Positions 21,153-34,836 of a DNA stretch of 64,000 bases are shown here, in pieces. How positions within the stretch are numbered: position 1 is the first letter of the stretch; each line of letters starts with the position of its first letter. The position numbers and the translations under genes are program-made. Under the pieces are notes generated by a model. The model saw only the letters and a program-made list of their open reading frames with translations. It made no database searches and was not told the origin of the DNA. Origin of the DNA: an uncultured delta proteobacterium (GTDB lineage Bacteria > Desulfobacterota > Zymogenia > Zymogenales > Zymogenaceae); assembly GCA_963735595.1 (NCBI GenBank), contig CAVTLK010000005.1, forward strand, positions 103,760 through 167,759, given 5' to 3'.

Positions 21153-23126
21153 TTGGAGCATAAGTCAACGGTGGGAACACGCAACGATTACGAAACAGAG
21201 ATAGACGAGTTTTTCGGTAAGGACGGACGTCTCTCGACGGTGCTTGCCGGGTTCGAGTTTCGGGAAGGCCAGCTCATCATGGCCCGGGCCGTGGGGCGGG
21301 CGTTTGCCGAGCGGCGGCCCCTCATGGTCGAGGCGGGCACGGGGACGGGTAAGACCCTTGCCTACCTGGTGCCCGCCCTCTTCTCGGGCAAGAAGACCGT
21401 CGTCTCCACGGGGACTATCAACCTCCAAGAACAGATCGTCCAAAAGGACGTCCCCATCATCGAACGGGCGATGAACCGGTCCGTCAAGGCGGTGATACTC
21501 AAGGGGCGCGGCAACTACCTCTGCCTTCGCCGGTTCGAGCGGTTCGGGCGTCAGCACGGTCTTGTGCTTGGAGAAGGGGCAACGTTCGCGCGCGAAATCG
21601 AGCGGTGGGCGAGGACGACGAAGACCGGCGATCGGGCGGAGCTTGCCAATCTTCCCGCGGAGTTCGCCCTCTGGGGGGAGATATCCTCGTCACCGGAGAG
21701 GTGCTTCGGGCCGAAATGCCCCCGTTTCGACGACTGCTTCGTGAGCCGCGCCAGGAGAAGGGCGCAGGCCGCCGACATCGTGGTGGTCAATCACCACCTC
21801 TTTTTTGTCGACCTGATGGTTCGCGAGCGGGGGGTGACAGGCGTGATCCCCCGGTGGGAGGCGGTCGTGCTGGACGAGGCGCATAACATAGAAAAGGTCG
21901 CCCTCGACTATTTCTCCCTCTCGGTTTCTCCGTTCCGGATCGACGTTTTGACCAGGGACCTCCTCCACGAGATGACCGCCGAACGGGTTACCGACCGCCG
22001 GATCGAGCGGGCGGTACTAGCGGTCACGGAGGGCTCGGTCGGCTTTTTCAACGCCGTCGGGTTCCGAACCGCCGAGGGGAAGGCCAGGATCGGTCCCGAA
22101 TTCTTTTCCCCGGAGGACAGAGAGCGCGCCCTGGGGCTTGCGGCGCGGTTGTCGCTGTTGGCTGAGGCGGTTCGGTCGTCGGGAGTCCAGCACGAGCCGA
22201 TCCTGGCGGCCGCGTACCGCGCGCAGGAGATCGCCGATAATCTCCAGTTCATCGTGACGATGCCGGACCGCCAGTACGTCTATTGGTCACAGATGTCCCA
22301 GGCCAGGGGGGGCGACGTCTTCTTTTGCGCCACGCCGATCGATATCGCCAAAGAGCTGCAGCAGCGTTTCTTTAAGAAGGTCGAAACGGTTATTCTCACC
22401 TCGGCCACCCTCTCGGTCATGGGCAGCTTCGATTTCTTCACCGAGAGCGTGGGGATTGGCTCGGATGTCGAAGGGATCATTGCCCCGGGCGGATTCGATA
22501 CCAAGCGCAATGCGCTCCTGTTTATCCCCTCCGACCTCCCCGAGCCGGACCGGCGAACCCCGAACGGGGCAGTGATCGACATGATCGGCCGGTTGCTTTC
22601 GCTCAGCCGCGGGCGGGCGCTGGTGCTGTTTACCAGCGTCAGAAACATGGAGGCCGCCCACGCCGCCCTCAAGGACGCGATTCCAATGAGGGTCATGATC
22701 CAGGGCGACGCCCCCCGCGGGGCGCTGCTCGCCGAGTTTAAAGACGACATCTCCTCGGTTTTGTTTGCAACGGCGTCCTTCTGGGAAGGGATCGACGTGC
22801 CGGGGGAGGCGCTCTCCCTGGTGATCATCGATAAGCTCCCATTTGACCGGCCGACCGACCCGATCATCGAGGCGAAGCTCGAGTACATGAGAGACCGGGA
22901 TCAGAACCCTTTTTACCGATATCAGCTTCCCCGCGCCGTCATCATGCTGCGCCAGGGGTTGGGCAGGCTCATCCGCTCCCAGAGCGATCGGGGGGTCCTG
23001 GCGGTGTTGGATTCACGGATTCGGCAAAAGCAGTACGGCCGCGTTTTCTTACAAAGCCTGTCCCACTTCTCTTTCACCGATGACCTCGGGGACGTGGGGG
23101 CGTTTTTCATGGATCAGGGCTCTTGA
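21153..23126 (+). CDS. dinG: ATP-dependent DNA helicase, DinG/XPD (Rad3) family with an Fe-S cluster domain
   Basis: Walker A AGTGTGKTLAYLVPAL, DEAH-box VVLDEAHNIE, four-Cys Fe-S insertion (CLRRFERFG...CFGPKCPRFDDC), and C-terminal helicase motifs (VLFATASFWEGIDVPG, QGLGRLIRS). Confidence 0.85.
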   Translation: MEHKSTVGTRNDYETEIDEFFGKDGRLSTVLAGFEFREGQLIMARAVGRAFAERRPLMVEAGTGTGKTLAYLVPALFSGKKTVVSTGTINLQEQIVQKDVPIIERAMNRSVKAVILKGRGNYLCLRRFERFGRQHGLVLGEGATFAREIERWARTTKTGDRAELANLPAEFALWGEISSSPERCFGPKCPRFDDCFVSRARRRAQAADIVVVNHHLFFVDLMVRERGVTGVIPRWEAVVLDEAHNIEKVALDYFSLSVSPFRIDVLTRDLLHEMTAERVTDRRIERAVLAVTEGSVGFFNAVGFRTAEGKARIGPEFFSPEDRERALGLAARLSLLAEAVRSSGVQHEPILAAAYRAQEIADNLQFIVTMPDRQYVYWSQMSQARGGDVFFCATPIDIAKELQQRFFKKVETVILTSATLSVMGSFDFFTESVGIGSDVEGIIAPGGFDTKRNALLFIPSDLPEPDRRTPNGAVIDMIGRLLSLSRGRALVLFTSVRNMEAAHAALKDAIPMRVMIQGDAPRGALLAEFKDDISSVLFATASFWEGIDVPGEALSLVIIDKLPFDRPTDPIIEAKLEYMRDRDQNPFYRYQLPRAVIMLRQGLGRLIRSQSDRGVLAVLDSRIRQKQYGRVFLQSLSHFSFTDDLGDVGAFFMDQGS

Positions 23127-23133: not shown

Positions 23134-23162
23134 TTGACTAACAACGATAAAGATACTATAAC
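23134..23162 (+). promoter_or_regulatory. sigma70-type promoter (TTGACT-17-TATAAC) for the GTPase-roadblock-che operon, followed by a leader of roughly 210 nt
   Basis: TTGACT at 23134-23139, a 17-nt spacer, and TATAAC at 23157-23162, in an AT-rich patch just after the dinG stop. Confidence 0.35.
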
Positions 23163-23376
23163 TATTACTATATTTCGACAAACCGGACTACTCCCCGCCC
23201 ACGTGGTTCCGGGAGAGGGTGAACGGTGCGGCGGGTCTTCCTATATAGATCCGTGACGCATCCGGCAAGGTGCCGTACAATCCACCGCGCCAAACGTGCG
23301 GCTTCTGGGGCGGTTGCGATATCCCGAGGGGTTCTTTCCCGGATAGAAGAGCCGTCAAGATAACAGGAGGACGAGT

Positions 23377-23889
23377 ATGCACCGTTTGAAAGTTGTCGTA
23401 ACCGGTCCCTTTAACAGCGGCAAGACTCAATTCATAAAATCGGTCAGCGAAATAGACGTGGTTTCCACCGAAAGAAAGGTGACCCTGCCCGAACACGCGG
23501 CGATCAAGGGAGAAACAACGGTGGCCATGGATTTTGGCCGTATCACCCTGGGTGACCAGAAAGTATACCTCTTCGGGACGCCGGGTCAGCAGCAGTTTGA
23601 CTTTATGTGGGAGGTGCTGACCGAGAATATGATCGGTTTTATCGTCGTCGTGGATTCGACGGACCCCAAGCGGTTTAAGGAGGCCCGGGAGATAATCCGG
23701 TTCTTCAAGGACATCCTCGAAGAACCGTTTGTCGTGGCTGCCAATAAACAGGAGCTTACCGGGGCGCTGCCGGTCACAGAGCTCAGAAAGGAATTAGGGC
23801 TGGACGACAGCTGTGAAATTATCGGCTGCAGCGCCGTCGACAAGAAAAGCTCGGTAAAAGTGCTCGATGCACTCATGAAGTATATGTAA
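23377..23889 (+). CDS. Ras-like small GTPase of the CvnD/MglA-like family (COG2229)
   Basis: P-loop GPFNSGKT, the TTVAMDFGRITL plus LFGTPGQ (G3) block matching Streptomyces conservon CvnD-type GTPases, an NKQE G4-like motif, and SAV (G5), in 170 aa. GGAGG RBS upstream. Confidence 0.8.
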   Translation: MHRLKVVVTGPFNSGKTQFIKSVSEIDVVSTERKVTLPEHAAIKGETTVAMDFGRITLGDQKVYLFGTPGQQQFDFMWEVLTENMIGFIVVVDSTDPKRFKEAREIIRFFKDILEEPFVVAANKQELTGALPVTELRKELGLDDSCEIIGCSAVDKKSSVKVLDALMKYM

Positions 23890-23928
23890 GGCCCGTATCT
23901 ATTATTATTTTATAAAAAGGGAATCATC

Positions 23929-24306
23929 GTGGCGACTTATAAAGCGTCTACGCTCAACAAGACCATAACCGATCTGTCGGAAGGGATTCCGGGCATCGAG
24001 GCTATCGTCCTTGAGACATACGAGGGGTTGGTGCTGGCATCTACTCTGCCCACCAGCGCGGAAGAGGAGATCATCGCGGCTATCTCCTCGGCCGCCCAGG
24101 GCATCATCAACCGCGCGGTCAAGGAACTCAAGCAGGGAGACGTTCAAAATACGCTTGTTTTGAGTTCTTCGGGCCAGATAGTCCTGACGGATATAGAGGG
24201 CAAGGCCCTGTTGACCGTTATCGCCAAGCGGGATTCGAATCTGGGCCTCATATCGGTCATGAGCCGGCGCATTGCCAAGGACATCAGAGGCCTCCTGCCG
24301 TTCTGA
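23929..24306 (+). CDS. roadblock/LC7 domain protein (MglB/CvnB-like)
   Basis: 125 aa with the classic roadblock pattern (IPGIEAIVLETYEGLVLAST...GQIVLTDIEGKALLTVIAKRDSNLGLI). Confidence 0.8.
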   Translation: MATYKASTLNKTITDLSEGIPGIEAIVLETYEGLVLASTLPTSAEEEIIAAISSAAQGIINRAVKELKQGDVQNTLVLSSSGQIVLTDIEGKALLTVIAKRDSNLGLISVMSRRIAKDIRGLLPF

Positions 24307-24314
24307 TTATCCAC

Positions 24315-25163
24315 ATGATCGAAAGCCGACAAGAAGAGAACATCGTGTTGACACCTGGAACATTCGCCAGGCTGAGGTCGATTCTCAAAGGTGGCGGCAG
24401 CGCCAATCTTAATCTCAATCTCTATAAAGATCCTTATATAGGGCGGCGGATTCAGGTGAGGATGCGCGCGACTCAGGCCGCCACTACCGAAGATTATCTC
24501 GATATAGCGGAAAGAAATCCCGTTGAGTACAAGAAGCTGGTATCTGTCCTGACCATCAACGTCACCCGGTTTTTCAGGAACCAAGAGACGTTCGACAAGA
24601 TCGACCGGCTTGTGATACCGAATATCATCAGGAATCACTATGAACGGGGTGGACGCAGGATAAACGTACTGAGCGTTGGATGTTCCACCGGTGAAGAGCC
24701 TTACAGCGTGGCGATTCTCTTTCTCGATCATCTTCAGAAGACAGGCCAATCGCGCGATCTGAGAGTCCTCGGAACCGATATTGATAAGCGGGCCCTCTTT
24801 CATGCCCTCAAAGGGATATACGATCAGGAGAAGGTGGAAGCAATTCCGAAAGATATCCTCAAACGATACTTCGTCGCGACGAAAAAGGGCTATCAAATAG
24901 CCCCTGACGTGCGAAACAAGGTAATCTTCATCAAAAAAGACGTATTTTCGTATAAAATGTATAACCGATTCGACCTGATACTGGCCAGGAATATACTCAT
25001 CTATTTTGTCAGAAGCTATCAGGAAAAGATCGTGGAAAGCTTCCATCGTCAATTGGTGCGGGGTGGTTTCCTCGTGCTGGGAAGGGCTGAATCGCTGGCC
25101 GGATGCACCAGACAGCTGTTCGAGCCGATAAGCGTTGCGGATCGGATTTATCGCAAAATCTGA
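24315..25163 (+). CDS. cheR: chemotaxis protein methyltransferase CheR
   Basis: The motifs TRFFRN, SVGCSTGEEPYSVAI, LGTDID..AL and ARNILIYF (SAM-dependent MCP methyltransferase). Confidence 0.9.
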   Translation: MIESRQEENIVLTPGTFARLRSILKGGGSANLNLNLYKDPYIGRRIQVRMRATQAATTEDYLDIAERNPVEYKKLVSVLTINVTRFFRNQETFDKIDRLVIPNIIRNHYERGGRRINVLSVGCSTGEEPYSVAILFLDHLQKTGQSRDLRVLGTDIDKRALFHALKGIYDQEKVEAIPKDILKRYFVATKKGYQIAPDVRNKVIFIKKDVFSYKMYNRFDLILARNILIYFVRSYQEKIVESFHRQLVRGGFLVLGRAESLAGCTRQLFEPISVADRIYRKI

Positions 25164-25223
25164 AAATACTATTCCTTTTTGGGAATAATTGGTGTAGTAT
25201 ATGGTGAAAATGGGAGGAGACAG

Positions 25224-26501
25224 ATGAGAATCGAAATCGGGTATAAATTCATCTTTGGATTTATTTTGGTTATCCTCACGTCCGTGATCCTGCCGTATCT
25301 GGTGCGAGCCACCCACCTGGTCGACAATGAGATGATCAGCAATATGATCGCGGCCCTTTCGGCGATACTGGTTGGTTTGATCATCGGGTGGGTTTTCACC
25401 AGGAACTTCACCAAGGACTTCCGGGAATTGACGGCGACTACCGAGATAATCAGCCAGGGTGACCTGAGCCAGTATATAGAAATCTCGCACAAGAAGGTCT
25501 TCCCCGATGAAACGGTCGACCTGGCCAATTCCGTCAATCGAATGCTCGGGAGCCTGCGGGATCTGGTGTCCCATGTTAAACGGACGGCTGCGCAGGTTTC
25601 TGAATCGGCCCAGGGGCTGTCGTCCTCCGCGGAAGAAATAAACGCCTCTACCGAGGAGATCGCCTCCACTATCGAACAGATATCACGAGGGGCCGAGCAC
25701 CAGGCGGAACTCGTCGACAAAACCGGCAACATCATCAAGGACATCGCCAAGAAGATCGAACGGGTTGCCGAGACCGCCAAAGATCTCTCCGCCTCCTCGG
25801 CTCAAAGCCAGGAAGAGGCCGGAACTGCCGGCAAGATGGTGGATAACGCCATGGAGCGGATGCTCACGGTGTTCAATAATATGGAACACATCGGCAAGAA
25901 CATGCTTGATTTCTCCGAAAAGGCCAAGGAGATCGGTAAAATCGTCGAAGTTATCAGAAACGTTGCCCATCAGACCAACCTCCTTGCCCTTAACGCCACG
26001 ATTGAGGCCGCCCGGGCCGGGGAATACGGCCGGGGATTTACCGTTGTTGCCGACGAGATCAGGAAGTTGTCCGAGACGACAACGAAGTTTGCCGAAGAGA
26101 TCACGGGCCTGGTGACCGATATCAGTAAGGGGAGCCAGGAGGCCAACATCGAGGTAAGGGAAGTCCTCAAGAACGTGGATGAAGGCAAGGACGTCATCAA
26201 TTCGGTCGTTCAATCGCTCGGCGGAATAATCAGGGTTGCGCTGGATTCTCTCCATGAACTCAACCGAATATCCCAGCTCGCGATCGAACAGGCAAAAGAA
26301 GCCGAGGAGATGGTCAAAGCGGTCGATGAAATAGCGCGGCTTGCCGAGGACAACGCGGCGGCCACCGAAGAAGTGAGCGCTGCTACTGAAGAACAGACTG
26401 CATCCATGGAAGAGATGGCCTCGTCGGCGCAGGAACTCTCAATGACGTCCGAACAGCTAAAGGCGGTAGTCGATAGCTTCAAGCTGGAACCGGAGGCATA
26501 A
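25224..26501 (+). CDS. methyl-accepting chemotaxis protein with a minimal periplasmic loop
   Basis: Start ATG 25224 preceded by GGGAGGAG. Two TM helices separated by about 14 residues, a HAMP region, and an MCP signalling domain ([33 protein letters not shown]). Confidence 0.9.
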
Positions 26502-26508
26502 GACAGAA

Positions 26509-26985
26509 ATGGGAGACCATGCCGACGGCGTAGGTGCTGAGCGCCAGATAATCGCCTTTGCCCTCTCCCACGAGGTTTTCGGGATAGATATCGCGCGGGT
26601 GCAGCGGATTGCCCCACCCGAGACGATAACACGTGTGCCGCGAGCGCCGGCATTCATATTGGGCATCATGAATATGGCCGGGCGGATCATCACACTGATC
26701 GACCTTGCCCATATCCTGCATCTTGAGAGAGGTGACGAGTTGGGGCAGCAAATCATCATCCTTAACCATGATGACATGAACATAGGCTTTGTTACCGGCC
26801 AGGTTGCCGATGTCATCATGACGGACGATGAATCCCTGAACAGGGAGATCGTACGTATCAGCGCTCAGGATGAGAACTTCGTTTCGGCAATACTGAATAC
26901 AGGCGACCGTATTATCAACGTACTGAACATCGAAAAGCTGTTTGATTTTATAAAAAAATCTTTTGTCGACTCGAGGGGGAAATGA
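26509..26985 (+). CDS. cheW: chemotaxis coupling protein CheW
   Basis: 158-aa CheW-like domain (IIAFALSHEVFGIDIARVQRI...ILGIMNMAGRIITLIDL). Confidence 0.9.
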   Translation: MGDHADGVGAERQIIAFALSHEVFGIDIARVQRIAPPETITRVPRAPAFILGIMNMAGRIITLIDLAHILHLERGDELGQQIIILNHDDMNIGFVTGQVADVIMTDDESLNREIVRISAQDENFVSAILNTGDRIINVLNIEKLFDFIKKSFVDSRGK

Positions 26986-27350
26986 GTCTCAAGGTATTAA
27001 TTGTCGATGATGCGAGTTTTATGAGGGCCATGCTGAAGGACATCCTTGTCTCAGGCGGCTTTGATCTCGCGGGCGAGGCGGTGGACGGTGTCGAAGCGGT
27101 ACAGAAATACAAAGAGCTTAGGCCGGATGTCGTTACTATGGATATAGTAATGCCCCTCAGAAGCGGTATCGACGCCGTCAAGGAGATTATCGCCTTCAAT
27201 AAGGACGCGCGAATCATTATGTGCAGTGCGCTCGGCCAGGAATCCCTCGTTCTGGAGGCCATCAATGCCGGCGCGAAGGACTATATTATAAAACCGTTTG
27301 ACCCGGATAAGGTCGTCGAGATGGTCAAGAAGGTCGCCGGGGTCAAGTAG
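26982..27350 (+). CDS. cheY: response regulator CheY
   Basis: Single REC domain (VLIVDDASFMR...VVTMDIVMP...GAKDYIIKPF). Its start overlaps the cheW stop. Confidence 0.9.
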   Translation: MSLKVLIVDDASFMRAMLKDILVSGGFDLAGEAVDGVEAVQKYKELRPDVVTMDIVMPLRSGIDAVKEIIAFNKDARIIMCSALGQESLVLEAINAGAKDYIIKPFDPDKVVEMVKKVAGVK

Positions 27351-27353
27351 TCA

Positions 27354-27938
27354 ATGGCCGACGCAGTAAAGCTCGTGATTATCGCCGCCTCCACCGGCGG
27401 ACCAAAGATACTGCTGGACGTACTTTCGGCAATTCCTCAGGGTATTCCATCTGCAATTATTGTCATACAACATATGCTCCCGCGCTTTATCGGTTCGTTT
27501 GCAAAGCGTTTGGAAAAAGGTTCACATCTGTCCGTGCAGGTCGGAAGCGACGGGATGAGGCTCGGTAAGGGGACGACTATTTTAGCTCCCGGGGGCAAAC
27601 ATCTCATTTTGGTGCCGGATACGGACGGCGTAATCGTTGGTTTTGACGAATCAGGCCCGAGGGCGGGCGTCATGCCGTCGGCCGACGTTACCATGATTTC
27701 GGCCGCTCCCCTGTTCCGTGGAAACCTCCTGGGCGTTATCCTTTCCGGGATGGGCAGAGACGGGGTCGAGGGATTTGCCGCGATAAAACGCGAGGGTGGT
27801 TCAACGGTCGTTGAAGATGAAGCATCAAGCGCGATTTATGGAATGCCGGGCCGGGCATTGACGCGGGGACTGGCCGACAAGGTCCTTACTCCGCACGAGG
27901 TTGCCCTGGAAATCATCGATTTTTCGTCGAGGATCTAG
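27354..27938 (+). CDS. cheB: protein-glutamate methylesterase, catalytic domain only (CheB without receiver domain)
   Basis: Catalytic triad contexts AASTGGP (Ser), IQHM (His) and GMGRDG (Asp) are present. There is no N-terminal REC domain (194 aa). Confidence 0.85.
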   Translation: MADAVKLVIIAASTGGPKILLDVLSAIPQGIPSAIIVIQHMLPRFIGSFAKRLEKGSHLSVQVGSDGMRLGKGTTILAPGGKHLILVPDTDGVIVGFDESGPRAGVMPSADVTMISAAPLFRGNLLGVILSGMGRDGVEGFAAIKREGGSTVVEDEASSAIYGMPGRALTRGLADKVLTPHEVALEIIDFSSRI

Positions 27939-27941
27939 ACC

Positions 27942-30103
27942 ATGGATATGTCCCGATATAAAAAGATATTCATGGAAGAGGCCCGGGAACACCTCGAGAA
28001 GATCAGCAGCCTCTCCCTGGAGATGGAAAAAAATCCCGAAGATATGGAGGTCATCAACGCCATTTTCCGGGAGGCCCACTCGATCAAGGGGATGGCGGCC
28101 TCGATGGGCTACACCCCGATATCCGAGCTGACCCATAAGGTCGAAGACCTCATGGACCTTATCCGAAAGGGGGAGATCGGCGCCAGTTCCCATCTCGTTG
28201 ACGTGATGCTCAGGGCCATAGACGTCCTGGAGAATCAACTCAACGCGATTGATACCGGCGGTGATACCGAGGCGGGACTTACCGAAGTCCTTGAAATGAT
28301 CGAGCGATCCCGAAAGGGCGACATACCCGAAAAGCAGCCGAAACCCGCACAAAAGCAGCCCCCTGCCGAAGAGAAGGCGCCCCCGGAGGGAAAGAGGATC
28401 AGGCCGCCTATATCGTAACCCTGGTCATACGGGAAGACGAGCCCAAGCCGAACGTCAAGGGCCTGCTGGGGGTTAAGAAGCTTTCAGAACTCGGCAAGGT
28501 CATGGGATTGGTCCCGGGCCTTGAGGAGATCAGGAAAGGATTGAAAGGCCGGGAACTGAAGGCGACACTGGTAACCGGGGTTGGGGAAGACGACGTAATG
28601 CGGGCGTTGAGGGGCTTGGCGTACCTTGCGTCATTTGACGTTATCAAGACAAGCGTCAAAACCGGTGGAGAGAGGGGAAAAGGGGAGCCTGCCAAATCCC
28701 CTATCGGGCCGGAAACCGTTGAATTTCGGCCTCCCCCCGATTCAGGTCCCGTTAATCGGCACGATACGGATATATCCCAGGCGGAGACGGCCGTAGACGA
28801 GCCGCCCGTCGAATGGGTCTCGGAAGAGCTGGCCATCCAGCAAGAGACTGCAGGGGTCAATCCTCCCGCGCAGTCTGTCTCCCCCGGCCGGGAATCATCC
28901 TCCAGTGAAGGACCGCGTGTGGAAGAGATGCTCCCGTCAGGAGAGGCGGGGGCGGGGCTGCCGCGATCGGTCCGTATCGGAACCGACCTCCTGGAGAGCT
29001 TCATTAATATTGTTGGTGAGCTGCTCATCACCAAATCCCGTATCCAACAGCAAACCCGGGGCCTCGCCATCACTCCTCTGGATGAGTCGGTAAACCGGCT
29101 CGAGAGCCTGATTAGAGAGCTCCATACGCGGGTAATCACCGTCAGGATGATGCCGCTGGAAAGCATCCTTTCACGGATGCCCCGCCTCGTGCGAGATCTT
29201 GCCCGGGAGAAAGGTAAGGACATAGAATTTACCATCACCGGCGGTGATATCGAGCTTGACCGCGCGATCCTCGAGGAGCTCACTGACCCGCTGGTTCATA
29301 TCCTGAGAAACGCCGTGGACCACGGGATAGAGCCGCCGAATCAGCGCCAGATGTCCGCGAAATCCCCGACGGGGAAAATCATGTTGTCGGCATACCGCGA
29401 GCGGGACCTCGTAATCCTCGAGGTCACCGACGACGGCCGCGGCATCGACCCGGCGAAGATCAGGGAGGCCGCCGTCCAGCGCGGGATCATGAAAAAGCAG
29501 CAGATCGATCTTCTTGACGACCGGGACGTGTTACTGCTTGCGTTCATGCCGAATCTCTCAACGAATAAGGAGGTCTCGGACATATCGGGACGGGGTGTTG
29601 GGATGGACGTGGTTAAGACCAAGGTAGAGTCCTTGGGCGGCTCGGTACGGCTGGAATCCCGAAAGGACGAGGGTACGAAGATCGTCCTGTCTCTTCCGCT
29701 TACGGTTGCTATCATACAGGCCCTCTTGATCAAGTCGGACGGAGAGACATTTGCCCTGCCCCTTTCAAAGACGATAAAGTCGGCGGAAGTGGCCGCGGCG
29801 TCGGTTCAGATGAGCCAGAATCAGAGGGTAGTCTTCATAGACGGCGATATGATCCCTCTGTTCAAAGTGGGGGATCTTCTGGGGTTTTCCGACGGCAGGA
29901 TTGACGACAGGGATATCTCGCTGATCGTCTCCGAAGTGCGTGGAAAACACATCGGTCTCCAGGTTGACGAAATTGTCGGGAGCCAGGAGATATTTATTAA
30001 GTCTCTCGGCTACCCCCTTGAGAAGATCCAGGGCTTTTCGGGCGTTACGATCCTGGGTGACGGGAAGCCCGTACTAATAATCGATATCGGGAACCTCTTT
30101 TAG
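27942..30103 (+). CDS. cheA: chemotaxis histidine kinase CheA (single gene; apparent split at 28416 caused by a 1-nt deletion in an A-run)
   Basis: HPt/P1 (REAHSIKGMAASMGY), then dimerisation, HATPase (ILRNAVDHGIE, DDGRGID, GRGVGMDVV) and C-terminal CheW-like domains. The P1 frame stops at 28416-28418, but the downstream frame is open from at least 28325 through to the ATG at 28502. Restoring one 'a' in ggaaag (28389-28394) fuses APPEG to KEDQAAYIVTL. Confidence 0.85.
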
Positions 30104-30106
30104 CAA

Positions 30107-30703
30107 ATGGATATAGACTCAATTCTCATCGATAAGAGCAGACTTATAGAAAAGCGTTCTCAGGACGCCCTGATCAGCTCGGCGTTGGCGCTTTCCCAGA
30201 TGACGGGGGAAACGGTCGATGTTGTCAGAACGATCGTCGACCTGATCAAGGTTCAAGAGATAGCGACATACATCGGTGATCGTGACGACAAGGTCACCCT
30301 TATCGCGCTGGACGTTCACGGAAAAATATCGGGAGACATCTACATCCTGCTCTCATCGTCGGACACGATGCTGATCACCAAGAAGGTCGCCGATAGATGG
30401 ATGAAAGAGGAGGAGATAGAGAAATTCAAAAACTCGGTGCTTGCCGAGGTAGGCAACATCGTGGCGTCGGCGTATATTAACGTATTGGGCGATTCGTTCA
30501 ATGTCGCCTTAATACCTTCCGTTCCCCGCCTCGAATTCGTTAGCGGGGAAGCGCTCATCCCCAAGATCCTTTCGAAGGGCGATTCCGATTTCGCACTCAT
30601 GTTCTTCTCGGAATTTGTCGTCGGGGAACGCGGGATTAAGGTCTTCTTCTTTTTCCTTCTGTCCAATGCATCGATGCAGTACCTCGGAGGCCATGCCCCA
30701 TGA
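30107..30703 (+). CDS. CheC/CheX-family CheY-P phosphatase
   Basis: A single E-x2-N...P active-site motif (LAEVGNIVASAYINVLGDSFNVALIPSVP), about 198 aa, positioned after cheA. Confidence 0.65.
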   Translation: MDIDSILIDKSRLIEKRSQDALISSALALSQMTGETVDVVRTIVDLIKVQEIATYIGDRDDKVTLIALDVHGKISGDIYILLSSSDTMLITKKVADRWMKEEEIEKFKNSVLAEVGNIVASAYINVLGDSFNVALIPSVPRLEFVSGEALIPKILSKGDSDFALMFFSEFVVGERGIKVFFFFLLSNASMQYLGGHAP

Positions 30704-31446
30704 ATCAGGAGGCAGTCAAAAATCTCCTGATTGGGGTCAAGAGCGGAGAAGTACCTGTCGAAGAGGCGATCGACAGGCTCAAGTCGTTGCCGTATCTTGA
30801 CCTCGGATTCGCCGTTGTCGATACCCATCGGGCGCTCAGGCAGGGATTCCCCGAGGTTATCATGGGCGAGGGGAAAGAGCCGCGAGATATCCTCGGTATT
30901 ATCGAAAGCCTCAGAAAAACCGGCAATACTATCCTCGTGACCCGCGTAGATACCGAAAAGGCTCGGGTGGTCCGGGAGCAGCTTCCCGAGATGACGTATA
31001 ACGAGCGTGCGCGGTCTCTCGTCCTTATCGAAGGGGAGATCACGATACGGGGAAAGGGGGCGATCATGGTAGTTTCGGCCGGAACCTCCGACATCCCGGT
31101 GGCCGAAGAAGCGGCCGTTGTTTGCGAGCTTATGGGAAACCGCACCGAGCGCCTCTGGGACGTGGGAGTGGCGGGGATACACCGGCTTATGAACCACGTC
31201 GACCGATTACGGGGCGCCAACGTGCTGGTAGTGGCGGCGGGGATGGAGGGGGCGCTGCCGTCGGTTATCGGGGGGATCGTAGAACGCCCGGTGGTGGCTG
31301 TACCCACCAGTGTCGGGTATGGCGCAGGTTTCGGCGGGCTCTCGGCGCTGCTGGGGATGCTCAATTCCTGTGCTGCGGGAGTATGCGTCGTTAATATCGA
31401 TAACGGCTTCGGTGCGGGATACGTTGCTTCCCTGATTAACCGATAA
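30700..31446 (+). CDS. larB: PurE-like AIR-carboxylase-related protein, LarB family (nickel-pincer cofactor biosynthesis)
   Basis: 248 aa with the PurE-like core (MVVSAGTSDIPVAEEAA...VAAGMEGALPSVIGG...AVPTSVGYGAGFGG) typical of the COG1691/LarB family. Its start overlaps the cheC/X stop. Confidence 0.75.
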   Translation: MNQEAVKNLLIGVKSGEVPVEEAIDRLKSLPYLDLGFAVVDTHRALRQGFPEVIMGEGKEPRDILGIIESLRKTGNTILVTRVDTEKARVVREQLPEMTYNERARSLVLIEGEITIRGKGAIMVVSAGTSDIPVAEEAAVVCELMGNRTERLWDVGVAGIHRLMNHVDRLRGANVLVVAAGMEGALPSVIGGIVERPVVAVPTSVGYGAGFGGLSALLGMLNSCAAGVCVVNIDNGFGAGYVASLINR

Positions 31447-31650
31447 TGATACCGTTGTGCCTCGTCGACCATCGGGATTATTATCGCCGGGCTTTGGGAA
31501 GCCCTTGGACTGCCCAATGTTTTGGGAGTGCTGTTTTCATAACTCGCCGGTACCCCGTGAGGGCCGTATCACAAACGGTACATAGGCCCTGTTAGAGAAG
31601 GTCGACCGTTCTCATCCGTTTTGTAGACAAACCGTAGCGCTTCAGGCTGT

Positions 31651-32844
31651 ATGGATACAATTCTCTATATCGATGCCTTCTCGGGCATATCCGGGGACAT
31701 GTTTCTCGGCGCGCTGATCGCCGCAGGACTTGATGCGGCAATCGTCCAGGACGAAATTCGCCGACTGGATATCGGAGCCGAGCTTTCCGTAGGCTTGGTA
31801 AAACGAAACGGGATCGAGGCGGTCAGCGTCTCGGTGATATCCGGTCGAAAAGATGAGGTAGAGCGTCATTACGGAGCGATAAAGAAGCTTATCGAGTCAC
31901 GCATAAACCCGGGTTACGCCCGGGAGACGGCCCTGAAGATATTCGAGTTGCTGGCGCGCGCGGAGGGCCGGGTGCACGGCCGGGATGCCGATCACGTCCA
32001 CTTCCACGAGGTGGGCGCCGTGGATTCGATCGTTGATATCGTCGGCGCCGCGGTGGGCCTGGCGGCGCTCGCGCCGGTTCGGGTGGTTTCCAGCCCGCTT
32101 CCCATGGGAAGGGGCTTTGTTACAACGCGGCACGGCGTGCTCCCGCTGCCGGCCCCGGCGACGGCCGAGCTCCTTGCGGGCATACCCGTAGTCGACGCCG
32201 GGATAGATGAAGAGCTCGTAACTCCGACGGGCGCGGCCATCGTTAAGACGGTCGCATCATCGTTTTCTGGGATACCGCCGATGATCGTCGAGAGATCGGG
32301 TTACGGCGCGGGAGACCGGGAGCTGCCCGACAGGCCCAATCTTCTCAGGCTTATAATCGGAAGGCCCTCAGACCAGACCGTCGGTGACGAGGTGGAAGTC
32401 ATCACAACCCACATAGACGATATGAACCCCCAGTTCTACGAGTATATAATGGATCGGCTTTTTGCCTTAGGGGCCCTTGACGTGGTGTTGGCTCCCGTAA
32501 TCATGAAAAAGGGCAGGCCCGCTACCGCGCTCGTTACCGTTGCCCCCATATCGGGGAGTGGGGAGATTATCGACGCGATCCTTTCCGAGACTACCAGCAT
32601 CGGCCTCCGGATTCACCGGGAGCGCCGGGTTAAGCTCGACCGTCAGCTGGAGACGGTTCAAACGCAATTGGGGGAGATCCGGGTCAAGCTTACGTTCGAC
32701 CGATCGGGAAAGGTTGCCGATGCGTACCCCGAATATGAGGATGTGCGAGCGGCCGCAGAGAGCCACCGCATTCCCATCGATCGGGCATACCGCTTGATTA
32801 TCGGCGAAATCGGCGAGATGTTGGCAAAAAGGGTGAGGAGATGA
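31651..32844 (+). CDS. larC: LarC-family nickel insertion protein (DUF111)
   Basis: N-terminal MDTILYIDAFSGISGDMFLGALI and HFHEVGAVDSIVDIVG motifs diagnostic of DUF111/LarC, in 397 aa. Confidence 0.85.
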   Translation: MDTILYIDAFSGISGDMFLGALIAAGLDAAIVQDEIRRLDIGAELSVGLVKRNGIEAVSVSVISGRKDEVERHYGAIKKLIESRINPGYARETALKIFELLARAEGRVHGRDADHVHFHEVGAVDSIVDIVGAAVGLAALAPVRVVSSPLPMGRGFVTTRHGVLPLPAPATAELLAGIPVVDAGIDEELVTPTGAAIVKTVASSFSGIPPMIVERSGYGAGDRELPDRPNLLRLIIGRPSDQTVGDEVEVITTHIDDMNPQFYEYIMDRLFALGALDVVLAPVIMKKGRPATALVTVAPISGSGEIIDAILSETTSIGLRIHRERRVKLDRQLETVQTQLGEIRVKLTFDRSGKVADAYPEYEDVRAAAESHRIPIDRAYRLIIGEIGEMLAKRVRR

Positions 32845-34334
32845 GCTCGACTATGTTACCACAACAACGGGAAAAGAATAAGGGAGTCATCCTCGTGGTG
32901 GATGACGAGTTTTCCATACGCGAGATATTAAGCGACGTGTTGAGCAACGAAGGATTTACTATATACACGGCGGAAAACGGAATTGAAGCGCTCAAGATAA
33001 TCCAGGAATTGGCCCCCGACCTGGTGATCACCGACATGAAGATGCCGAAGATGGGCGGGATGGAACTCCTGTACCAGATCAATTCCATGAGGAACAGGGT
33101 CATTACGATTATGATGACCGGCTTTGCCACCGTCGAAACGGCGGTGGAGGCCATCAAAAAGGGCGCCTATGACTATATCATGAAGCCCTTCCAGTTCTCC
33201 GATCTTCTCCGGGTGATAGAACATGCCCTCGAAAAGCAGCACCTCATCACAGAAAACCTGGAGCTTAGAGAAACGGTTGCGCTCTATGATATCAGCAAGG
33301 CCATCAGTTCCCACCTTGATATGGAGATCGTGCTCTCGATGCTGCTTTCCACACTCCTGAAGGAGGGAGATGCCGACGCCGTCTCAATGTATATAAAAGA
33401 CATGATCCTTAAGATATCGATCATGAGCAAGACCGTCGCCAAAGAACCCCGATTTGAAAAGGCCGCCGTTACCCTCGTTTCTCCACACGATATGCTGGCA
33501 AAGCTTTCCGGTACCGATTCGCTCATGCTTTCCGGTAGTCAGGCGGCTCAGTTATTTCCTGCGAATGCAGGCTTTGACGATCTGGAGTCGCTCCTGGCGC
33601 TGCCGATTCGAATTAAGGGCGAGACGACGGGCTTTGTATCTCTATTCTCATTCACCCGGGGATATCGGTTCACCGAGGGCCGGAGGAAGGCGCTGTCCAT
33701 CCTGGTGAGCAACGTTTCGGTGGCGGTGGAAAATGCCCGGCTCTATCAGGATATCGTTTCGATTCTTGATGATACCGTAAAGAGCTTCGCCAGAACCCTG
33801 GACGCAAAGGATAAATATGCCTCCGGTCATTCGGAGCGCGTCACCCGCTACGCACTGATTATCGCACGTTCATTAAAGCTTGACAGCGAAGACGTCGACC
33901 GGCTGGCCCAGGCGGGGCTCTTACACGATATTGGGAAGATCGGGGTCAGTGAGCGTTTGCTCAACAAGAAAGATAAGCTCGAGATCGATGAGTACGAGGA
34001 AACCAAACTGCACCCGGTTATCGGCAGAGACATCCTTTCCACGATCGAGAGATTCCAGGATATTGCCGAGATTGTCTATCATCACCACGAATGGTTCGAC
34101 GGTAACGGTTACCCGGAAGGGATTTCCGGAAACGCGATCCCTCTCTTGAGCCGGATCATCGCTGTGGCCGATGCCTTCGATGCGATGACCTCCAGGCGAA
34201 CCTATCGTGAGCAAATCGGAAAGGAACGGGCGCTGGAGGAGCTACGCCGCAATGCCGGCACGCAATTTGATCCGGCGGTCGTGGAGGCGTTGCTCGCAGA
34301 TATACAACAGCTTGACATTGAAGAGGCTCCCTAA
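32841..34334 (+). CDS. response regulator with REC, GAF-like and HD-GYP (c-di-GMP phosphodiesterase) domains
   Basis: REC (ILVVDDEFSIRE...VITDMKMPKMGG...KPF), a central GAF-like region, and HD-GYP (HSERVTRYA...LLHDIGK...HHEWFDGNGYP). Its start overlaps the larC stop. Confidence 0.85.
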   Translation: MSSTMLPQQREKNKGVILVVDDEFSIREILSDVLSNEGFTIYTAENGIEALKIIQELAPDLVITDMKMPKMGGMELLYQINSMRNRVITIMMTGFATVETAVEAIKKGAYDYIMKPFQFSDLLRVIEHALEKQHLITENLELRETVALYDISKAISSHLDMEIVLSMLLSTLLKEGDADAVSMYIKDMILKISIMSKTVAKEPRFEKAAVTLVSPHDMLAKLSGTDSLMLSGSQAAQLFPANAGFDDLESLLALPIRIKGETTGFVSLFSFTRGYRFTEGRRKALSILVSNVSVAVENARLYQDIVSILDDTVKSFARTLDAKDKYASGHSERVTRYALIIARSLKLDSEDVDRLAQAGLLHDIGKIGVSERLLNKKDKLEIDEYEETKLHPVIGRDILSTIERFQDIAEIVYHHHEWFDGNGYPEGISGNAIPLLSRIIAVADAFDAMTSRRTYREQIGKERALEELRRNAGTQFDPAVVEALLADIQQLDIEEAP

Positions 34335-34338
34335 TATA

Positions 34339-34836
34339 ATGACCGGGCAATGGCAAGCTGTTAAAGATCGTCTCATCACGGTTTTCGCAACCGGGTTTGG
34401 TTTAGGGTATCTGCCGCTCGTCCCGGGAACGTTCGGGACGCTCGTCGGTATTCCGATTTGCCTGTTGTTGAGCCTCGGTGGATGGGTTATTTACGTTTCA
34501 GGGACGCTTGCGCTGATTGCGGCGGGTGTCTGGGTGGCGGGCCGGACCGATCGGATCTTTGGGACGCATGATTCCCGGAAGATCGTCATCGACGAAATAT
34601 GCGGTTTCCTGGTCACTATGGCCTTGGTGATCCCGGGACCTCTCACGATCGGGATCGGTTTTGTCGCATTCAGGCTCTTTGACATCCTGAAGCCTTTTCC
34701 GGCGAGCTATTTCGATCGAAGCCTGTCGGGAGGATGGGGGGTGATGCTGGACGATATCGCCGCCGGCGTTTATGCCAACGTGACGCTTCACCTGTCTTTG
34801 GCAATCATCGGCCTCGTGTGGCCGGGGGTTTTGTGA
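34339..34836 (+). CDS. pgpA: phosphatidylglycerophosphatase A
   Basis: 165-aa PgpA family (FGLGYLPLVPGTFGTLVGIP...IVIDEICGF). The ATG lies 4 nt after the preceding stop. Confidence 0.85.
   Translation: MTGQWQAVKDRLITVFATGFGLGYLPLVPGTFGTLVGIPICLLLSLGGWVIYVSGTLALIAAGVWVAGRTDRIFGTHDSRKIVIDEICGFLVTMALVIPGPLTIGIGFVAFRLFDILKPFPASYFDRSLSGGWGVMLDDIAAGVYANVTLHLSLAIIGLVWPGVL

What the first reader, a model, noticed from the sequence alone, without database searches (positions are those of the whole stretch)
23134..34334. A Ras-like GTPase plus roadblock (MglA/MglB- or CvnD/CvnB-like) pair forms the first two cistrons of a complete chemosensory operon
The genes at 23377 (small GTPase with TTVAMDFGRITL and LFGTPGQ, as in conservon CvnD and MglA-like GTPases) and 23929 (roadblock/LC7) lie 8 bp upstream of cheR. 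They are co-directional with MCP, cheW, cheY, cheB, cheA, cheC/X, larB, larC and the RR-HD-GYP gene. Gaps are 40 bp or less, or overlaps, apart from one 204-bp gap between larB and larC. In Myxococcus the Frz chemosensory pathway and the MglA/MglB polarity switch are encoded at separate loci. In Streptomyces, CvnB/CvnD come with CvnA/CvnC instead. A fused GTPase-roadblock-Che operon suggests a chemosensory pathway wired directly to a small-GTPase polarity or secretion switch. I do not recognise this arrangement as described.
Basis: partly seen in the sequence, partly recalled or inferred. Interest (0 to 1): 0.8.

Follow-up and report, generated by a model that had tools for sequence, protein, structure and literature searches.

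The report
Small GTPase–roadblock pair heading chemosensory operon
In one uncultured group of sediment bacteria (Candidatus Zymogenaceae), a Ras-like GTPase and its roadblock-type partner sit behind a conserved promoter as the first two genes of a chemotaxis-type operon. This gene order was not found in any other lineage sampled or in the papers searched, and it suggests, without proving, that a chemosensory pathway is wired directly to a G-protein switch.

Summary
Window 23377-23889 encodes a small Ras/Arf-like GTPase. Window 23929-24306 encodes a Roadblock/LC7 protein 8 bp upstream of cheR. These are followed by MCP, cheW, cheY, cheB, cheA, cheC, larB, larC and a REC-HD-GYP gene.

A sigma-70-like promoter (TTGACT-17-TATAAC, 23134-23162) is conserved in all 8 related loci aligned. 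No terminator-like site separates the GTPase, roadblock and cheR genes.

The GTPase has the MglA-family motifs of Groups 2-5 (GTPGQ, a Thr-Thr G2, NKQD/E). It is neither MglA proper nor CvnD. Its nearest relatives outside the clade are mostly PATAN-coupled GTPases from Chloroflexi and carry no che genes.

All 9 loci with a GTPase at least 64% identical share the arrangement. They form one clade whose synteny extends upstream of the operon, so they count as a single evolutionary event. No che gene was found in about 160 loci of other lineages. None of 7 related che clusters has the GTPase-roadblock pair.

Functional wiring is therefore plausible but inferred.

Two corrections apply. cheA is split by a 1-nt deletion in a C-run, probably an assembly error. 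The lar genes recur next to this type of che cluster in three groups of loci, so they are probably not incidental.

Verdict: new variant of a known kind, moderate interest.

The parts
23134..23162 (+). Sigma-70-like promoter, TTGACT-17 nt-TATAAC. It starts 8 nt after the stop of the upstream yoaA-like helicase gene and lies about 215 nt upstream of the GTPase start codon.
   Evidence: Read from the sequence. The -35 TTGACT and most of the -10 are invariant in 8 related loci, while the rest of the leader is not conserved. The automatic scan missed it because the -10 ends in C.
23377..23889 (+). Small Ras-superfamily GTPase of the MglA family, Groups 2-5 type. Motifs: G1 GPFNSGKT, G2 ETTV, G3 GTPGQ, G4 NKQE (NKQD in most orthologues), G5 CSA.
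   Evidence: Pfam and NCBIfam. Translation. Alignment A1. AlphaFold model with pLDDT 83.5, matching Arf/Arl and MglA structures at TM about 0.7. Group motif definitions from PMC4316618.
23929..24306 (+). Roadblock/LC7 (MglB-like) protein of 125 aa. It is the most conserved protein of the block among close relatives.
   Evidence: Pfam Robl_LC7 2.9e-14. PDB sequence hit to the Thorarchaeota roadblock 7f8m at 2.9e-17, and to CvnB5 3leq at 2e-4. The model matches 7f8m, a Streptomyces roadblock and M. xanthus MglB at TM about 0.77. Identity to L001, L002 and L095 is 95%, 80% and 64%.
24315..25163 (+). cheR methyltransferase. It starts 8 nt after the roadblock stop codon.
   Evidence: Pfam CheR 1e-52. 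The junction was read.
25179..26501 (+). Methyl-accepting chemotaxis protein. It has two closely spaced TM helices with no periplasmic ligand-binding domain, a HAMP domain, and a signalling domain of the 44-heptad type. The true start is probably the ATG at 25224.
   Evidence: Pfam. Translation. A near-gapless 301-residue alignment to T. maritima TM1143, PDB 2ch7.
26509..26985 (+). cheW
   Evidence: Pfam CheW 5e-28.
26982..27350 (+). cheY, a single-domain response regulator. The acceptor Asp lies in the motif VTMDIVMP.
   Evidence: Pfam. NCBIfam CheY_Halo 1.5e-38, 131.7 bits, below the 200-bit cutoff. Translation.
27354..27938 (+). cheB methylesterase domain only, with no receiver domain.
   Evidence: Pfam CheB_methylest 1e-51 on a 194-aa protein.
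27942..30103 (+). cheA (Hpt, P2-like region, dimerisation, ATPase, CheW-like domains). In this assembly it is interrupted by a 1-nt deletion in the C-run at about 28380-28385.
   Evidence: Pfam and NCBIfam on both halves. Frame analysis and alignment to L001. Intact 720-aa CheA homologue P0171, 98% identical.
30107..30703 (+). cheC-like CheY-P phosphatase.
   Evidence: Pfam CheC 8e-6. NCBIfam CheC_Thtogales 8e-15, 55.2 bits, below the 250-bit cutoff.
30700..31446 (+). larB, nickel-pincer cofactor biosynthesis. Its start overlaps the cheC stop by 4 nt.
   Evidence: NCBIfam LarB 4.8e-88, above the cutoff.
31651..32844 (+). larC, the nickel insertion enzyme. It follows a 204-nt gap that is not conserved in sequence.
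   Evidence: Pfam Ni_insertion 4e-132. NCBIfam LarC1 and LarC2. Alignment of the gap.
32841..34334 (+). Response regulator with a REC domain, a weak GAF-like region and an HD-GYP c-di-GMP phosphodiesterase domain. The HD and HHExxDGxGYP motifs are intact. Its start overlaps the larC stop by 4 nt.
   Evidence: Pfam HD_5 5e-44 and Response_reg 5e-30. Translation.
34312..34340 (+). Perfect consensus sigma-70 promoter (TTGACA-17-TATAAT) at the 3' end of the last gene. It probably starts the next transcription unit (pgpA, cinA, thpR, recA).
   Evidence: Promoter scan, 12 of 12 matches.

Best explanation
Window 23134-34334 is probably one sigma-70-driven transcription unit of an uncultured Candidatus Zymogenaceae-like bacterium (Desulfobacterota). 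In it, a G-protein switch module sits at the head of an F1-like chemosensory operon (44-heptad-type MCP, CheC). The module is an MglA-family GTPase of the GTPGQ/Thr-Thr type plus its MglB-like roadblock partner.

Shown:
- the gene families;
- the order and spacing of the genes;
- a conserved promoter in front of the GTPase gene;
- no terminator-like site before cheR;
- restriction of the arrangement to one clade;
- origin of the GTPase among PATAN-coupled GTPases.

Inferred:
- The roadblock protein regulates the GTPase cycle, as MglB does for MglA.
- The che pathway controls that cycle. A membrane-anchored MCP without a periplasmic domain would signal through CheW and CheA to CheY-P and/or the REC-HD-GYP regulator.
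- The GTPase would then serve as an output or polarity device alongside a c-di-GMP output. The most likely target is type IV pili. This would be a one-operon analogue of the Frz-to-MglA/MglB circuit of Myxococcus.
For: Families.

Operon structure:
- The gap from the GTPase to the roadblock gene is 39 nt, and from the roadblock gene to cheR 8 nt.
- No terminator-like site lies between 23889 and 24315.
- The -35 TTGACT and most of the -10 are invariant in 8 loci, immediately upstream of the GTPase gene and immediately after the helicase stop.
- A perfect consensus promoter marks the next unit at 34312.

Conservation:
- All 9 loci with a GTPase at least 64% identical carry the order as far as each contig reaches. 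L094 ends after the roadblock gene.
- The GTPase (90/68/65% identity in L001/L002/L095), roadblock (95/80/64), MCP (95/76/72) and CheY (90/69/75) are more conserved than the flanking helicase (81/54/53) or the upstream 385-aa ORF (74/39/41).

Link to pilus and polarity biology:
- Among relatives at 50-63% identity, 90 of 94 have a PATAN gene within 3 kb.
- Three related che clusters (L170, L171, L175) carry a REC-PATAN regulator.
- A PilT/PilU-family ATPase is encoded 3.4 kb downstream of the operon.

Precedent: Frz acts on MglA/MglB genetically through response regulators (PMC4316618).
Against: - All occurrences form one monophyletic clade. In L001, L002 and L095, synteny extends about 8-10 kb upstream of the operon. 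The adjacency may simply be inherited.
- No independent recurrence was found. No che gene lay within the sequence held (up to 10 kb per side) in about 160 GTPase loci from other lineages. None of 7 related che clusters has the pair.
- There is no transcript, interaction or phenotype evidence.
- No RomR-, PATAN- or GEF-like partner lies in the operon, and no PATAN hit was found anywhere in the window.
- F1-class systems classically control flagella or archaella (own knowledge). Only 64 kb of this genome was visible, so flagella cannot be excluded.
- The G4 Asp is Glu in this window and Asn in one orthologue, so nucleotide specificity is uncertain.
Confidence: 0.5

Rival explanations
1. The GTPase-roadblock pair acts on the chemosensory array itself rather than downstream of it. 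It could position or assemble the array at a pole, as the ParA-like ATPases PpfA and ParC encoded in other che operons do. Alternatively it could form a conservon-like complex in which the MCP-CheA kinase replaces the CvnA histidine kinase, so that the G protein modulates kinase activity.
For: The pair is transcribed first, ahead of cheR and the MCP. The MCP has no periplasmic sensor domain, so its input may be cytoplasmic or a protein. In conservons a roadblock protein and a GTPase interact with a histidine kinase (PMC4316618). NTPases that position arrays are known in che operons (own knowledge).
Against: No CvnC/DUF742-type gene was detected in the operon. The conservon-type G4/G5 motifs (NxFD, DAR) are absent. 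The pull towards PATAN and pilus biology from the nearest relatives fits an output role better. There is no direct evidence either way.
Confidence: 0.2
2. The GTPase-roadblock pair is a passenger. A self-contained two-gene G-protein module was inserted between the helicase gene and cheR in the ancestor of this clade. It is co-transcribed with the che genes but is not linked to them functionally.
For: The arrangement reflects a single evolutionary event with extended synteny. In related che clusters the same site between a yoaA-like helicase gene and cheR holds unrelated genes (hsp20, lon, an AIRS-family gene), so it behaves as a variable insertion point. Some of the Chloroflexi-type relatives also carry GTPase-then-roadblock pairs without che genes.
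Against: The gap to cheR is 8 nt, and the only promoter found to be conserved across the clade lies upstream of the GTPase gene. The arrangement is retained down to 65% GTPase and 45-53% helicase identity without rearrangement. The pair is under stronger constraint than its neighbours.
Confidence: 0.22
3. The pair works with the upstream YoaA/DinG-like helicase in DNA metabolism. The model would be the mycobacterial conservon GTPase MfpB, which regulates MfpA and DNA gyrase.
For: The helicase gene lies immediately upstream in all 9 clade loci and scores as YoaA (682.8 bits, cutoff 680). The MfpB precedent is described in PMC4316618.
Against: The two are separated by a 250-nt gap that contains the conserved promoter. 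A terminator-like hairpin lies at 23084-23099, at the helicase 3' end. The same helicase gene sits upstream of related che clusters that lack the GTPase, so it is a synteny neighbour of the che operon rather than of the GTPase.
Confidence: 0.03

Closest known systems
Myxococcus xanthus Frz chemosensory system acting on the MglA/MglB(/RomR) polarity switch
   Same: A CheA-type pathway with single-domain response regulators, plus a Ras-like GTPase with Thr in place of Asp in G3 (TxxGQ), plus a roadblock-fold regulator. The predicted roadblock structure matches M. xanthus MglB at TM about 0.77. The GTPase model matches MglA at TM about 0.7.
   Different: In Myxococcus the two modules are encoded at separate loci (PMC4316618). 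Here they share one operon. The GTPase lacks the Group-1 intrinsic Arg finger, having Thr-Thr instead of Arg-Thr in G2. It matches T. thermophilus MglA only at E = 4.5e-6 by sequence. The roadblock protein is about 12% identical to MglB. No RomR/RomX is visible. The che system is F1-like rather than Frz-like.
Actinobacterial conservon (CvnA histidine kinase, CvnB roadblock, CvnC DUF742, CvnD GTPase)
   Same: A roadblock protein plus a GTPGQ-type GTPase encoded with a histidine-kinase signalling system. The GTPase is 37-42% identical to the actinobacterial GTPases recovered, which are presumed to be conservon CvnD homologues. The roadblock protein hits CvnB5 (3leq, E = 2e-4).
   Different: There is no CvnA-type membrane kinase and no CvnC gene. 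G4 is NKQD/E rather than NxFD, and there is no DAR G5 motif. The gene order is GTPase then roadblock. The kinase partner would be CheA within a receptor array.
PATAN-coupled Group-5 MglA-family GTPases (Chloroflexi and others) and PATAN-REC (PatA-type) regulators of cyanobacterial chemotaxis-like systems
   Same: These are the nearest large group of sequence relatives (50-60% identity). Of 94 such loci with enough upstream sequence, 90 have a PATAN gene within 3 kb. A few also have GTPase-then-roadblock order. PATAN-REC regulators are outputs of che-like systems and bind the pilus motor. Related che clusters L170, L171 and L175 carry a REC-PATAN gene.
   Different: No PATAN gene was found in the window or in the 9 clade loci. 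Here the GTPase sits directly with the che genes instead.
F1-class chemosensory systems (Bacillus, Thermotoga, archaea)
   Same: An MCP of the 44-heptad type (near-gapless alignment to TM1143), CheC, and a CheA with a P2 region. The nearest non-clade CheAs by sequence include archaeal and NC10 (Methylomirabilota) proteins. The class attributes are from own knowledge.
   Different: CheD and CheV are absent, and CheB lacks its receiver domain. The operon also carries a GTPase, a roadblock protein, LarB, LarC and a REC-HD-GYP regulator.
Wsp-type chemosensory systems with a c-di-GMP output (own knowledge)
   Same: A che-like operon that ends in a response regulator controlling c-di-GMP.
   Different: The output enzyme here is an HD-GYP phosphodiesterase, not a GGDEF cyclase. 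The che class also differs.

Membership tests
MglA family of prokaryotic Ras-superfamily GTPases (Wuichet & Sogaard-Andersen 2014) | Single-domain small GTPase of 150-240 aa with an intact P-loop, a G2 Thr and a catalytic Gln in G3 | tested here: met
   170 aa, with GPFNSGKT, ETTV and GTPGQ. Pfam Arf and Ras hits.
MglA family of prokaryotic Ras-superfamily GTPases (Wuichet & Sogaard-Andersen 2014) | G3 begins with Thr instead of the canonical Asp (TxxGQ; GTPGQ in Groups 2-5) | tested here: met
   LFGTPGQ is invariant in alignment A1. Motif definition.
MglA family of prokaryotic Ras-superfamily GTPases (Wuichet & Sogaard-Andersen 2014) | Encoded within four genes of an MglB/roadblock homologue (a 'coupled' pair) | tested here: met
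   The roadblock gene lies 39 nt downstream. It is present in 8 of 8 clade loci with enough downstream sequence.
MglA Group 1 (MglA proper, SofG) | Intrinsic arginine finger next to the G2 Thr, and TVPGQ in G3 | tested here: not met
   G2 is Thr-Thr and G3 is GTPGQ. The T. thermophilus MglA PDB sequence matches only at E = 4.5e-6.
MglA Group 2 / conservon CvnD | G4 NxFD and G5 DAR motifs, with CvnA kinase, CvnB and CvnC genes adjacent | tested here: not met
   G4 is NKQE/NKQD and G5 is CSA. The neighbours are che genes. Identity to the actinobacterial homologues is 37-42%.
MglA Group 5 (taxonomically mixed; occasional PATAN neighbourhood) | GTPGQ, a canonical [NT]KxD G4, and relatives linked to PATAN genes | tested here: inconclusive
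   The motifs fit, with NKQD in most orthologues. The nearest large group of relatives is PATAN-linked. No reference Group-5 sequences from the paper were available for a joint tree. The immediate NJ sister sequences (L141, L155, L126) are orphan GTPases with neither PATAN nor che genes.
MglB / Roadblock-LC7 GTPase regulators | Roadblock alpha-beta-alpha fold | tested here: met
   Pfam PF03259, 2.9e-14. The predicted topology is H-E-E-H-E-E-E-H. Foldseek matches roadblock proteins and MglB at TM 0.74-0.79. The model confidence is only moderate (pLDDT 72.8).
MglB / Roadblock-LC7 GTPase regulators | Conserved acidic-Gly pair reported for MglB proteins coupled to Groups 2-5 GTPases | tested here: met
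   YEGL in 17 of 19 orthologues and YDGL in the other 2. Feature description.
MglB / Roadblock-LC7 GTPase regulators | GAP (or GEF) activity on the cognate GTPase | not testable with these tools
   This needs a biochemical assay.
F1-class chemosensory system | 44-heptad MCP signalling domain | tested here: met
   A 301-residue, near-gapless alignment to TM1143, PDB 2ch7. That TM1143 belongs to the 44H class is from own knowledge.
F1-class chemosensory system | CheC and CheD accessory proteins | tested here: inconclusive
   A CheC-like gene is present. CheD is absent here but present in the related clusters L171, L173, L174 and L175.
Complete chemosensory core (MCP, CheW, CheA, CheY, CheR, CheB) | All six components encoded and intact | tested here: met
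   All six are present. cheA carries a 1-nt frameshift in this assembly, but the 98%-identical homologue P0171 is intact. alaS shows three comparable frameshifts, which points to assembly error.

The most novel reading that the evidence does not exclude
The operon could be a minimal, self-contained G-protein-coupled chemoreceptor circuit that evolved independently of Myxococcus. In it, a transmembrane chemoreceptor array would gate the nucleotide state or location of a Ras-like GTPase directly, through CheY-P and/or the roadblock protein. The array's output would be split between that GTPase (polarity of type IV pili or another polar machine) and c-di-GMP hydrolysis by the REC-HD-GYP regulator. 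The recurrent lar genes may supply a nickel-pincer cofactor to a still unidentified component of this class of che systems.
Probability: 0.25. Interest if true: 0.75.

Novelty: new variant of a known kind. Interest (0 to 1): 0.5.

Why it matters
How chemosensory pathways talk to Ras-like polarity GTPases has been worked out mainly in Myxococcus. There the modules are encoded at separate loci and the connection runs through several response regulators.

An operon that packs a GTPase, its roadblock partner, a full che set and a c-di-GMP phosphodiesterase into about 11 kb offers a compact set of candidate partners. The 12 proteins could be synthesised and tested in vitro for direct coupling, without needing to culture the organism.

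It would also extend the known gene contexts of MglA-family GTPases (conservon, PATAN, orphan) to chemosensory operons. It adds a genomic link between che systems, PATAN-type pilus regulators and small GTPases.

The side observation that nickel-pincer cofactor genes repeatedly follow this class of che cluster did not turn up in the papers searched. It may point to an unrecognised cofactor requirement or signal.

Tried and rejected
1. Genome-collection scan with a GTPase alignment. It served as a negative control but not for mapping the clade.
2. Homologue search with the roadblock protein. Only 31 hits came back, all at least 62% identical, so it gave no route to independent lineages.
3. Small unknown ORFs next to related che clusters (L172 5296-5730, L171 2917-3366). 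They were tested as hidden roadblock proteins by Pfam and hhalign, with negative results.
4. Rfam scan for a riboswitch or leader RNA in the 215-nt leader or the larB-larC gap. Nothing was found in the operon. The larB-larC gap is not conserved.
5. Structure searches. They confirm the folds but cannot separate MglA-like from Arf-like GTPases, since both match at TM about 0.7.
6. Literature searches for a described GTPase or roadblock gene in a che operon, or a lar-che link. Nothing was found. The searched library does not cover most subscription-journal papers.
7. Supplementary tables of the Zymogenia paper, to check for flagellar or pilus genes. They are not held.
8. Reading the cheA split as a real pseudogene or a programmed frameshift. 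This was rejected because the lesion is a 1-nt loss in a homopolymer, a 98%-identical homologue is intact, and alaS and a CHAT-domain gene are fragmented in the same way.

Full report
**1. What is in the sequence**

- 23377-23889 encodes a 170-aa small GTPase (Arf 3e-14, Ras 2e-7, ATP_bind_1 1e-14).
- 23929-24306 encodes a 125-aa Roadblock/LC7 protein (2.9e-14).
- The following genes are cheR (24315), a HAMP-MCP (25179), cheW (26509), cheY (26982), a cheB methylesterase without a receiver domain (27354), cheA (27942-30103), a cheC-like gene (30107), larB (30700), larC (31651) and a REC-HD-GYP response regulator (32841-34334).
- The HD-GYP gene has intact HD and HHExxDGxGYP motifs.
- Spacings are 39, 8, 15, 7, -4, 3, 3, 3, -4, 204 and -4 nt.
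- The upstream gene (21153-23126) is a YoaA/DinG-type helicase.
- Downstream lie pgpA, cinA, a LigT/ThpR-like phosphoesterase gene, recA, a PilT/PilU-family ATPase gene, recX and alaS.

**2. One correction to 'complete operon'**

cheA is split into an Hpt ORF and a kinase ORF in different frames.

- Alignment with the 90%-related locus L001 places a 1-nt deletion in a run of C at about 28380-28385.
- A 98%-identical CheA homologue (P0171) is an intact 720 aa.
- In the same window the essential alaS gene is cut into four consecutive ORFs, and a CHAT-domain gene is fragmented.

The split is therefore most probably an assembly indel error, not biology.

**3. Transcription-unit evidence**

- Eight nucleotides after the helicase stop lies TTGACT-17 nt-TATAAC (23134-23162).
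- In an alignment of eight related loci, the -35 hexamer and most of the -10 are invariant. These loci span GTPase identities from 100% to 65%. The remaining 100-215 nt of leader is not conserved.
- The consensus scan finds no terminator-like hairpin between the GTPase, roadblock and cheR genes. It finds a perfect TTGACA-17-TATAAT at 34312-34340, at the end of the HD-GYP gene, which probably starts the next unit.
- cheC/larB and larC/REC-HD-GYP overlap by 4 nt. Only the larB-larC gap (204 nt, not conserved) could hold an internal boundary.
- Rfam finds no known RNA element in the operon.

Co-transcription of the GTPase, roadblock and che genes is thus well supported by sequence but not demonstrated.

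**4. What kind of GTPase and roadblock protein**

The GTPase:
- G1 is GPFNSGKT, G2 is ETTV, G3 is GTPGQ, and G5 is CSA.
- G4 is NKQE in the window, NKQD in most orthologues and NKQN in one.
- In the classification of Wuichet & Sogaard-Andersen (PMC4316618), Thr-Thr in G2 plus GTPGQ defines MglA-family Groups 2-5.
- Group 1 (MglA, SofG) has an intrinsic Arg finger and TVPGQ. Group 2 (CvnD) has NxFD and DAR. Neither applies here.
- By sequence the protein matches Arf-like GTPases (3.6e-8) slightly better than T. thermophilus MglA (4.5e-6).
- The AlphaFold model (pLDDT 83.5) matches Arf/Arl and MglA structures equally, at TM about 0.7.

The roadblock protein:
- By sequence it is closest to an Asgard (Thorarchaeota) roadblock, 7f8m, at 2.9e-17. 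It also hits CvnB5.
- Its model matches roadblock proteins and M. xanthus MglB at TM about 0.77, with about 12% identity to MglB.
- It keeps the acidic-Gly pair noted for MglB proteins coupled to Groups 2-5 GTPases.

**5. Distribution**

Source organism:
- The GTPase is 99% identical to a protein cluster found on metagenome and MAG contigs.
- It is 90% identical to a protein that NCBI names as from a Candidatus Zymogenaceae bacterium.
- Zymogenia are uncultured fermentative Desulfobacterota (bioRxiv 10.1101/2021.03.22.436540).

The arrangement within the clade:
- Two MAG loci (L001, L002) and seven metagenome loci (L089-L095) have GTPases 64-90% identical to the window's.
- All nine carry the order helicase, GTPase, roadblock, cheR and onwards, as far as each contig reaches.
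- They form one monophyletic group in a neighbour-joining tree.
- In L001, L002 and L095, synteny extends about 8-10 kb upstream of the operon.
- They therefore represent one evolutionary event.

Outside the clade:
- About 160 loci with GTPases at most 60% identical come from Chloroflexi, Aquificales, Actinomycetota and metagenomes. None has a CheA, CheW, CheR, CheB or MCP gene within the sequence held, up to 10 kb on either side (tblastn E < 1e-5).
- In the 50-63% identity bin, 90 of 94 loci have a PATAN (PatA_N) gene within 3 kb. Only 7 of 91 have a detectable roadblock gene, although that detection is insensitive for distant roadblocks.
- This PATAN neighbourhood matches the published description of Group 5.

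**6. The che cluster from the other side**

- The MCP has two closely spaced TM helices and no periplasmic domain.
- It aligns almost without gaps over 301 residues with the 44-heptad receptor TM1143.
- Together with CheC, this indicates an F1-like class (class attributes are from own knowledge).
- Non-clade CheA homologues (39-50% identity) come from clusters with the same core order: cheR, MCP, cheW, cheY, (cheB), cheA, cheC, (cheD).

Four flank types were seen:

| Loci | Upstream of cheR | Downstream of cheC/cheD |
|---|---|---|
| L172 | AIRS-family gene, unknown ORF | larE-like PP-loop gene |
| L169 | contig starts at cheR | larE |
| L173, L174 | yoaA-like helicase, hsp20, lon, AIRS-family gene | no lar gene seen |
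| L170, L171, L175 | REC-PATAN, unknown ORF, GAF kinase, TrkH | folD (in L171 and L175), larB, larC |

- None of these clusters has a GTPase or roadblock gene.
- Two small unknown ORFs were tested against the roadblock profile and rejected.
- The pair therefore looks like a clade-specific insertion at the head of an older, widely inherited che operon. In other lineages the same site holds other genes.

**7. Mechanism: shown versus inferred**

Shown:
- the gene families;
- the order and spacing of the genes;
- the conserved promoter;
- restriction of the arrangement to one clade;
- stronger sequence constraint on the GTPase, roadblock, MCP and CheY proteins than on flanking genes.

Inferred, in three steps:
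1. The roadblock protein regulates the GTPase, by analogy with MglB and CvnB.
2. The che pathway and the G-protein module are coupled.
3. The direction of coupling.

I favour an output or polarity role acting on type IV pili, for four reasons.
- The GTPase's nearest large group of relatives pairs with PATAN proteins.
- PATAN is the domain through which che-like systems bind the pilus motor proteins PilB1 and PilC. MglA/MglB homologues are regularly encoded near PATAN genes.
- Three related che clusters carry REC-PATAN regulators.
- A PilT/PilU ATPase is encoded nearby.

The REC-HD-GYP regulator suggests a parallel c-di-GMP output.

Rivals:
- The pair positions or modulates the array, in a ParC/PpfA-like or conservon-like manner.
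- The pair is a co-transcribed passenger.
- The pair works with the helicase. This is unlikely, because the helicase is a synteny neighbour of che clusters that lack the GTPase.

**8. Comparison with known systems, and novelty**

- The system works most like the Frz-MglA/MglB circuit, but it fails membership of MglA Group 1.
- It resembles a conservon, but it fails the CvnA/CvnC and G4/G5 tests.
- By motifs and relatives it fits Group 5, but that membership could not be tested against reference sequences.
- The key survey of prokaryotic small GTPases looked at gene neighbourhoods and did not report che linkage.
- Six further full-text searches found nothing (and 7).
- I rate it a new variant of a known kind.
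- Its interest is moderate. The functional idea has precedent, the occurrence is a single lineage of uncultured bacteria, and coupling is unproven. On the other hand, the operon offers a compact, synthesisable test system.

**9. Side finding**

- lar genes follow cheC or cheD in three of the four cluster types.
- Zymogenia and the L170/L171/L175 type have larB and larC.
- In L169, larE follows cheC (LarE E = 1.4e-100), with a 4-nt overlap of the cheC stop.
- L172 has a syntenic 276-aa PP-loop gene in the same position, also overlapping the cheC stop by 4 nt. It is presumed to be larE.
- In the window, larB likewise overlaps the cheC stop by 4 nt.
- This recurrence, across CheAs only 39-50% identical to the window's, suggests the lar genes are not incidental. 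I found no paper on it.

Noticed in passing
window 30700-32844; L169 6922-7752; L172 12566-13396; L171 14291-16368; L175 12415-14758: Nickel-pincer cofactor genes follow the cheC/cheD end of this type of che cluster in three groups of loci whose CheAs are 39-50% identical to the window's. They are larB and larC in the window and in L170/L171/L175, larE in L169 (E = 1.4e-100), and a syntenic larE-like PP-loop gene in L172. In the window (larB) and in L169/L172 (larE or larE-like) the lar gene overlaps the cheC stop by 4 nt. No LarA gene was seen nearby. No paper on a lar-che link was found.
   Followed up: partly
window ~28380-28385 (cheA); 39501-41986 (alaS); 14479-15733 (CHAT-domain gene): cheA has a 1-nt deletion in a C-run. 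alaS is cut into four consecutive ORFs that cover Pfam profile positions 1-314, 318-380, 387-471 and 481-549. A CHAT-domain gene is also fragmented. The assembly evidently carries homopolymer-type indel errors, so apparent pseudogenes in this window should not be trusted.
   Followed up: yes
window ~37738-38898 (+): A PilT/PilU-family type IVa pilus ATPase gene (TIGR01420, 488 bits, cutoff 319) sits between recA (36696-37721) and recX (38899-39375). This is an unusual position, and it shows that the organism encodes a type IVa pilus-type (PilT/PilU) ATPase.
   Followed up: partly
window 23743-23757 (GTPase G4 motif): The guanine-specificity motif is NKQE in the window and in its 99% relative. 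It is NKQD in most orthologues and NKQN in P0003. In other GTPases, a change of D to N shifts specificity towards xanthine nucleotides (own knowledge). Nucleotide preference in this clade may therefore vary.
   Followed up: no
window 27354-27938: CheB is a bare methylesterase domain (194 aa) with no receiver domain. The same holds in the related clusters L169 and L172 (224-226 aa). Three other related cluster types lack cheB altogether.
   Followed up: partly
L170 1961-2923; L171 1958-2920; L175 157-1134: A REC-PATAN (PatA-type) response regulator gene lies about 3.8 kb upstream of cheR in a related che-cluster type. It is followed by a small ORF of 139-149 aa with no family hit, a GAF histidine kinase gene and TrkH.
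   Followed up: partly
window 21153-23126; L173 771-2720; L174 895-2895: A YoaA/DinG-like helicase gene lies upstream of this type of che cluster both in Zymogenia and in a distant lineage. The segment between the helicase gene and cheR varies: GTPase-roadblock in one, hsp20-lon-AIRS in the other.
   Followed up: partly
window 34312-34340: A perfect consensus sigma-70 promoter (TTGACA-17-TATAAT) is embedded in the last codons of the REC-HD-GYP gene, upstream of pgpA.
   Followed up: no
window 8473-8655 (+); 56891-56964 (+): A 6S RNA gene (Rfam RF00013, 105.9 bits) and a tRNA-Arg(TCG) gene.
   Followed up: no
window 60203-63541 (+): A large hybrid sensor kinase of 1112 aa, with a periplasmic solute-binding domain (SBP_bac_3), several PAS domains, HisKA, HATPase and a C-terminal receiver domain.
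   Followed up: no
L141 7360-7863; L155 3256-3759; L126 1290-1826: In the neighbour-joining tree, the immediate sister sequences of the che-linked GTPases are orphan GTPases. They sit next to a glycosyltransferase gene or a metallophosphoesterase gene, with no PATAN, roadblock or che gene nearby. Two come from the same sample series (Ga01804xx) as several clade loci, so they may be paralogues from related organisms.
   Followed up: partly
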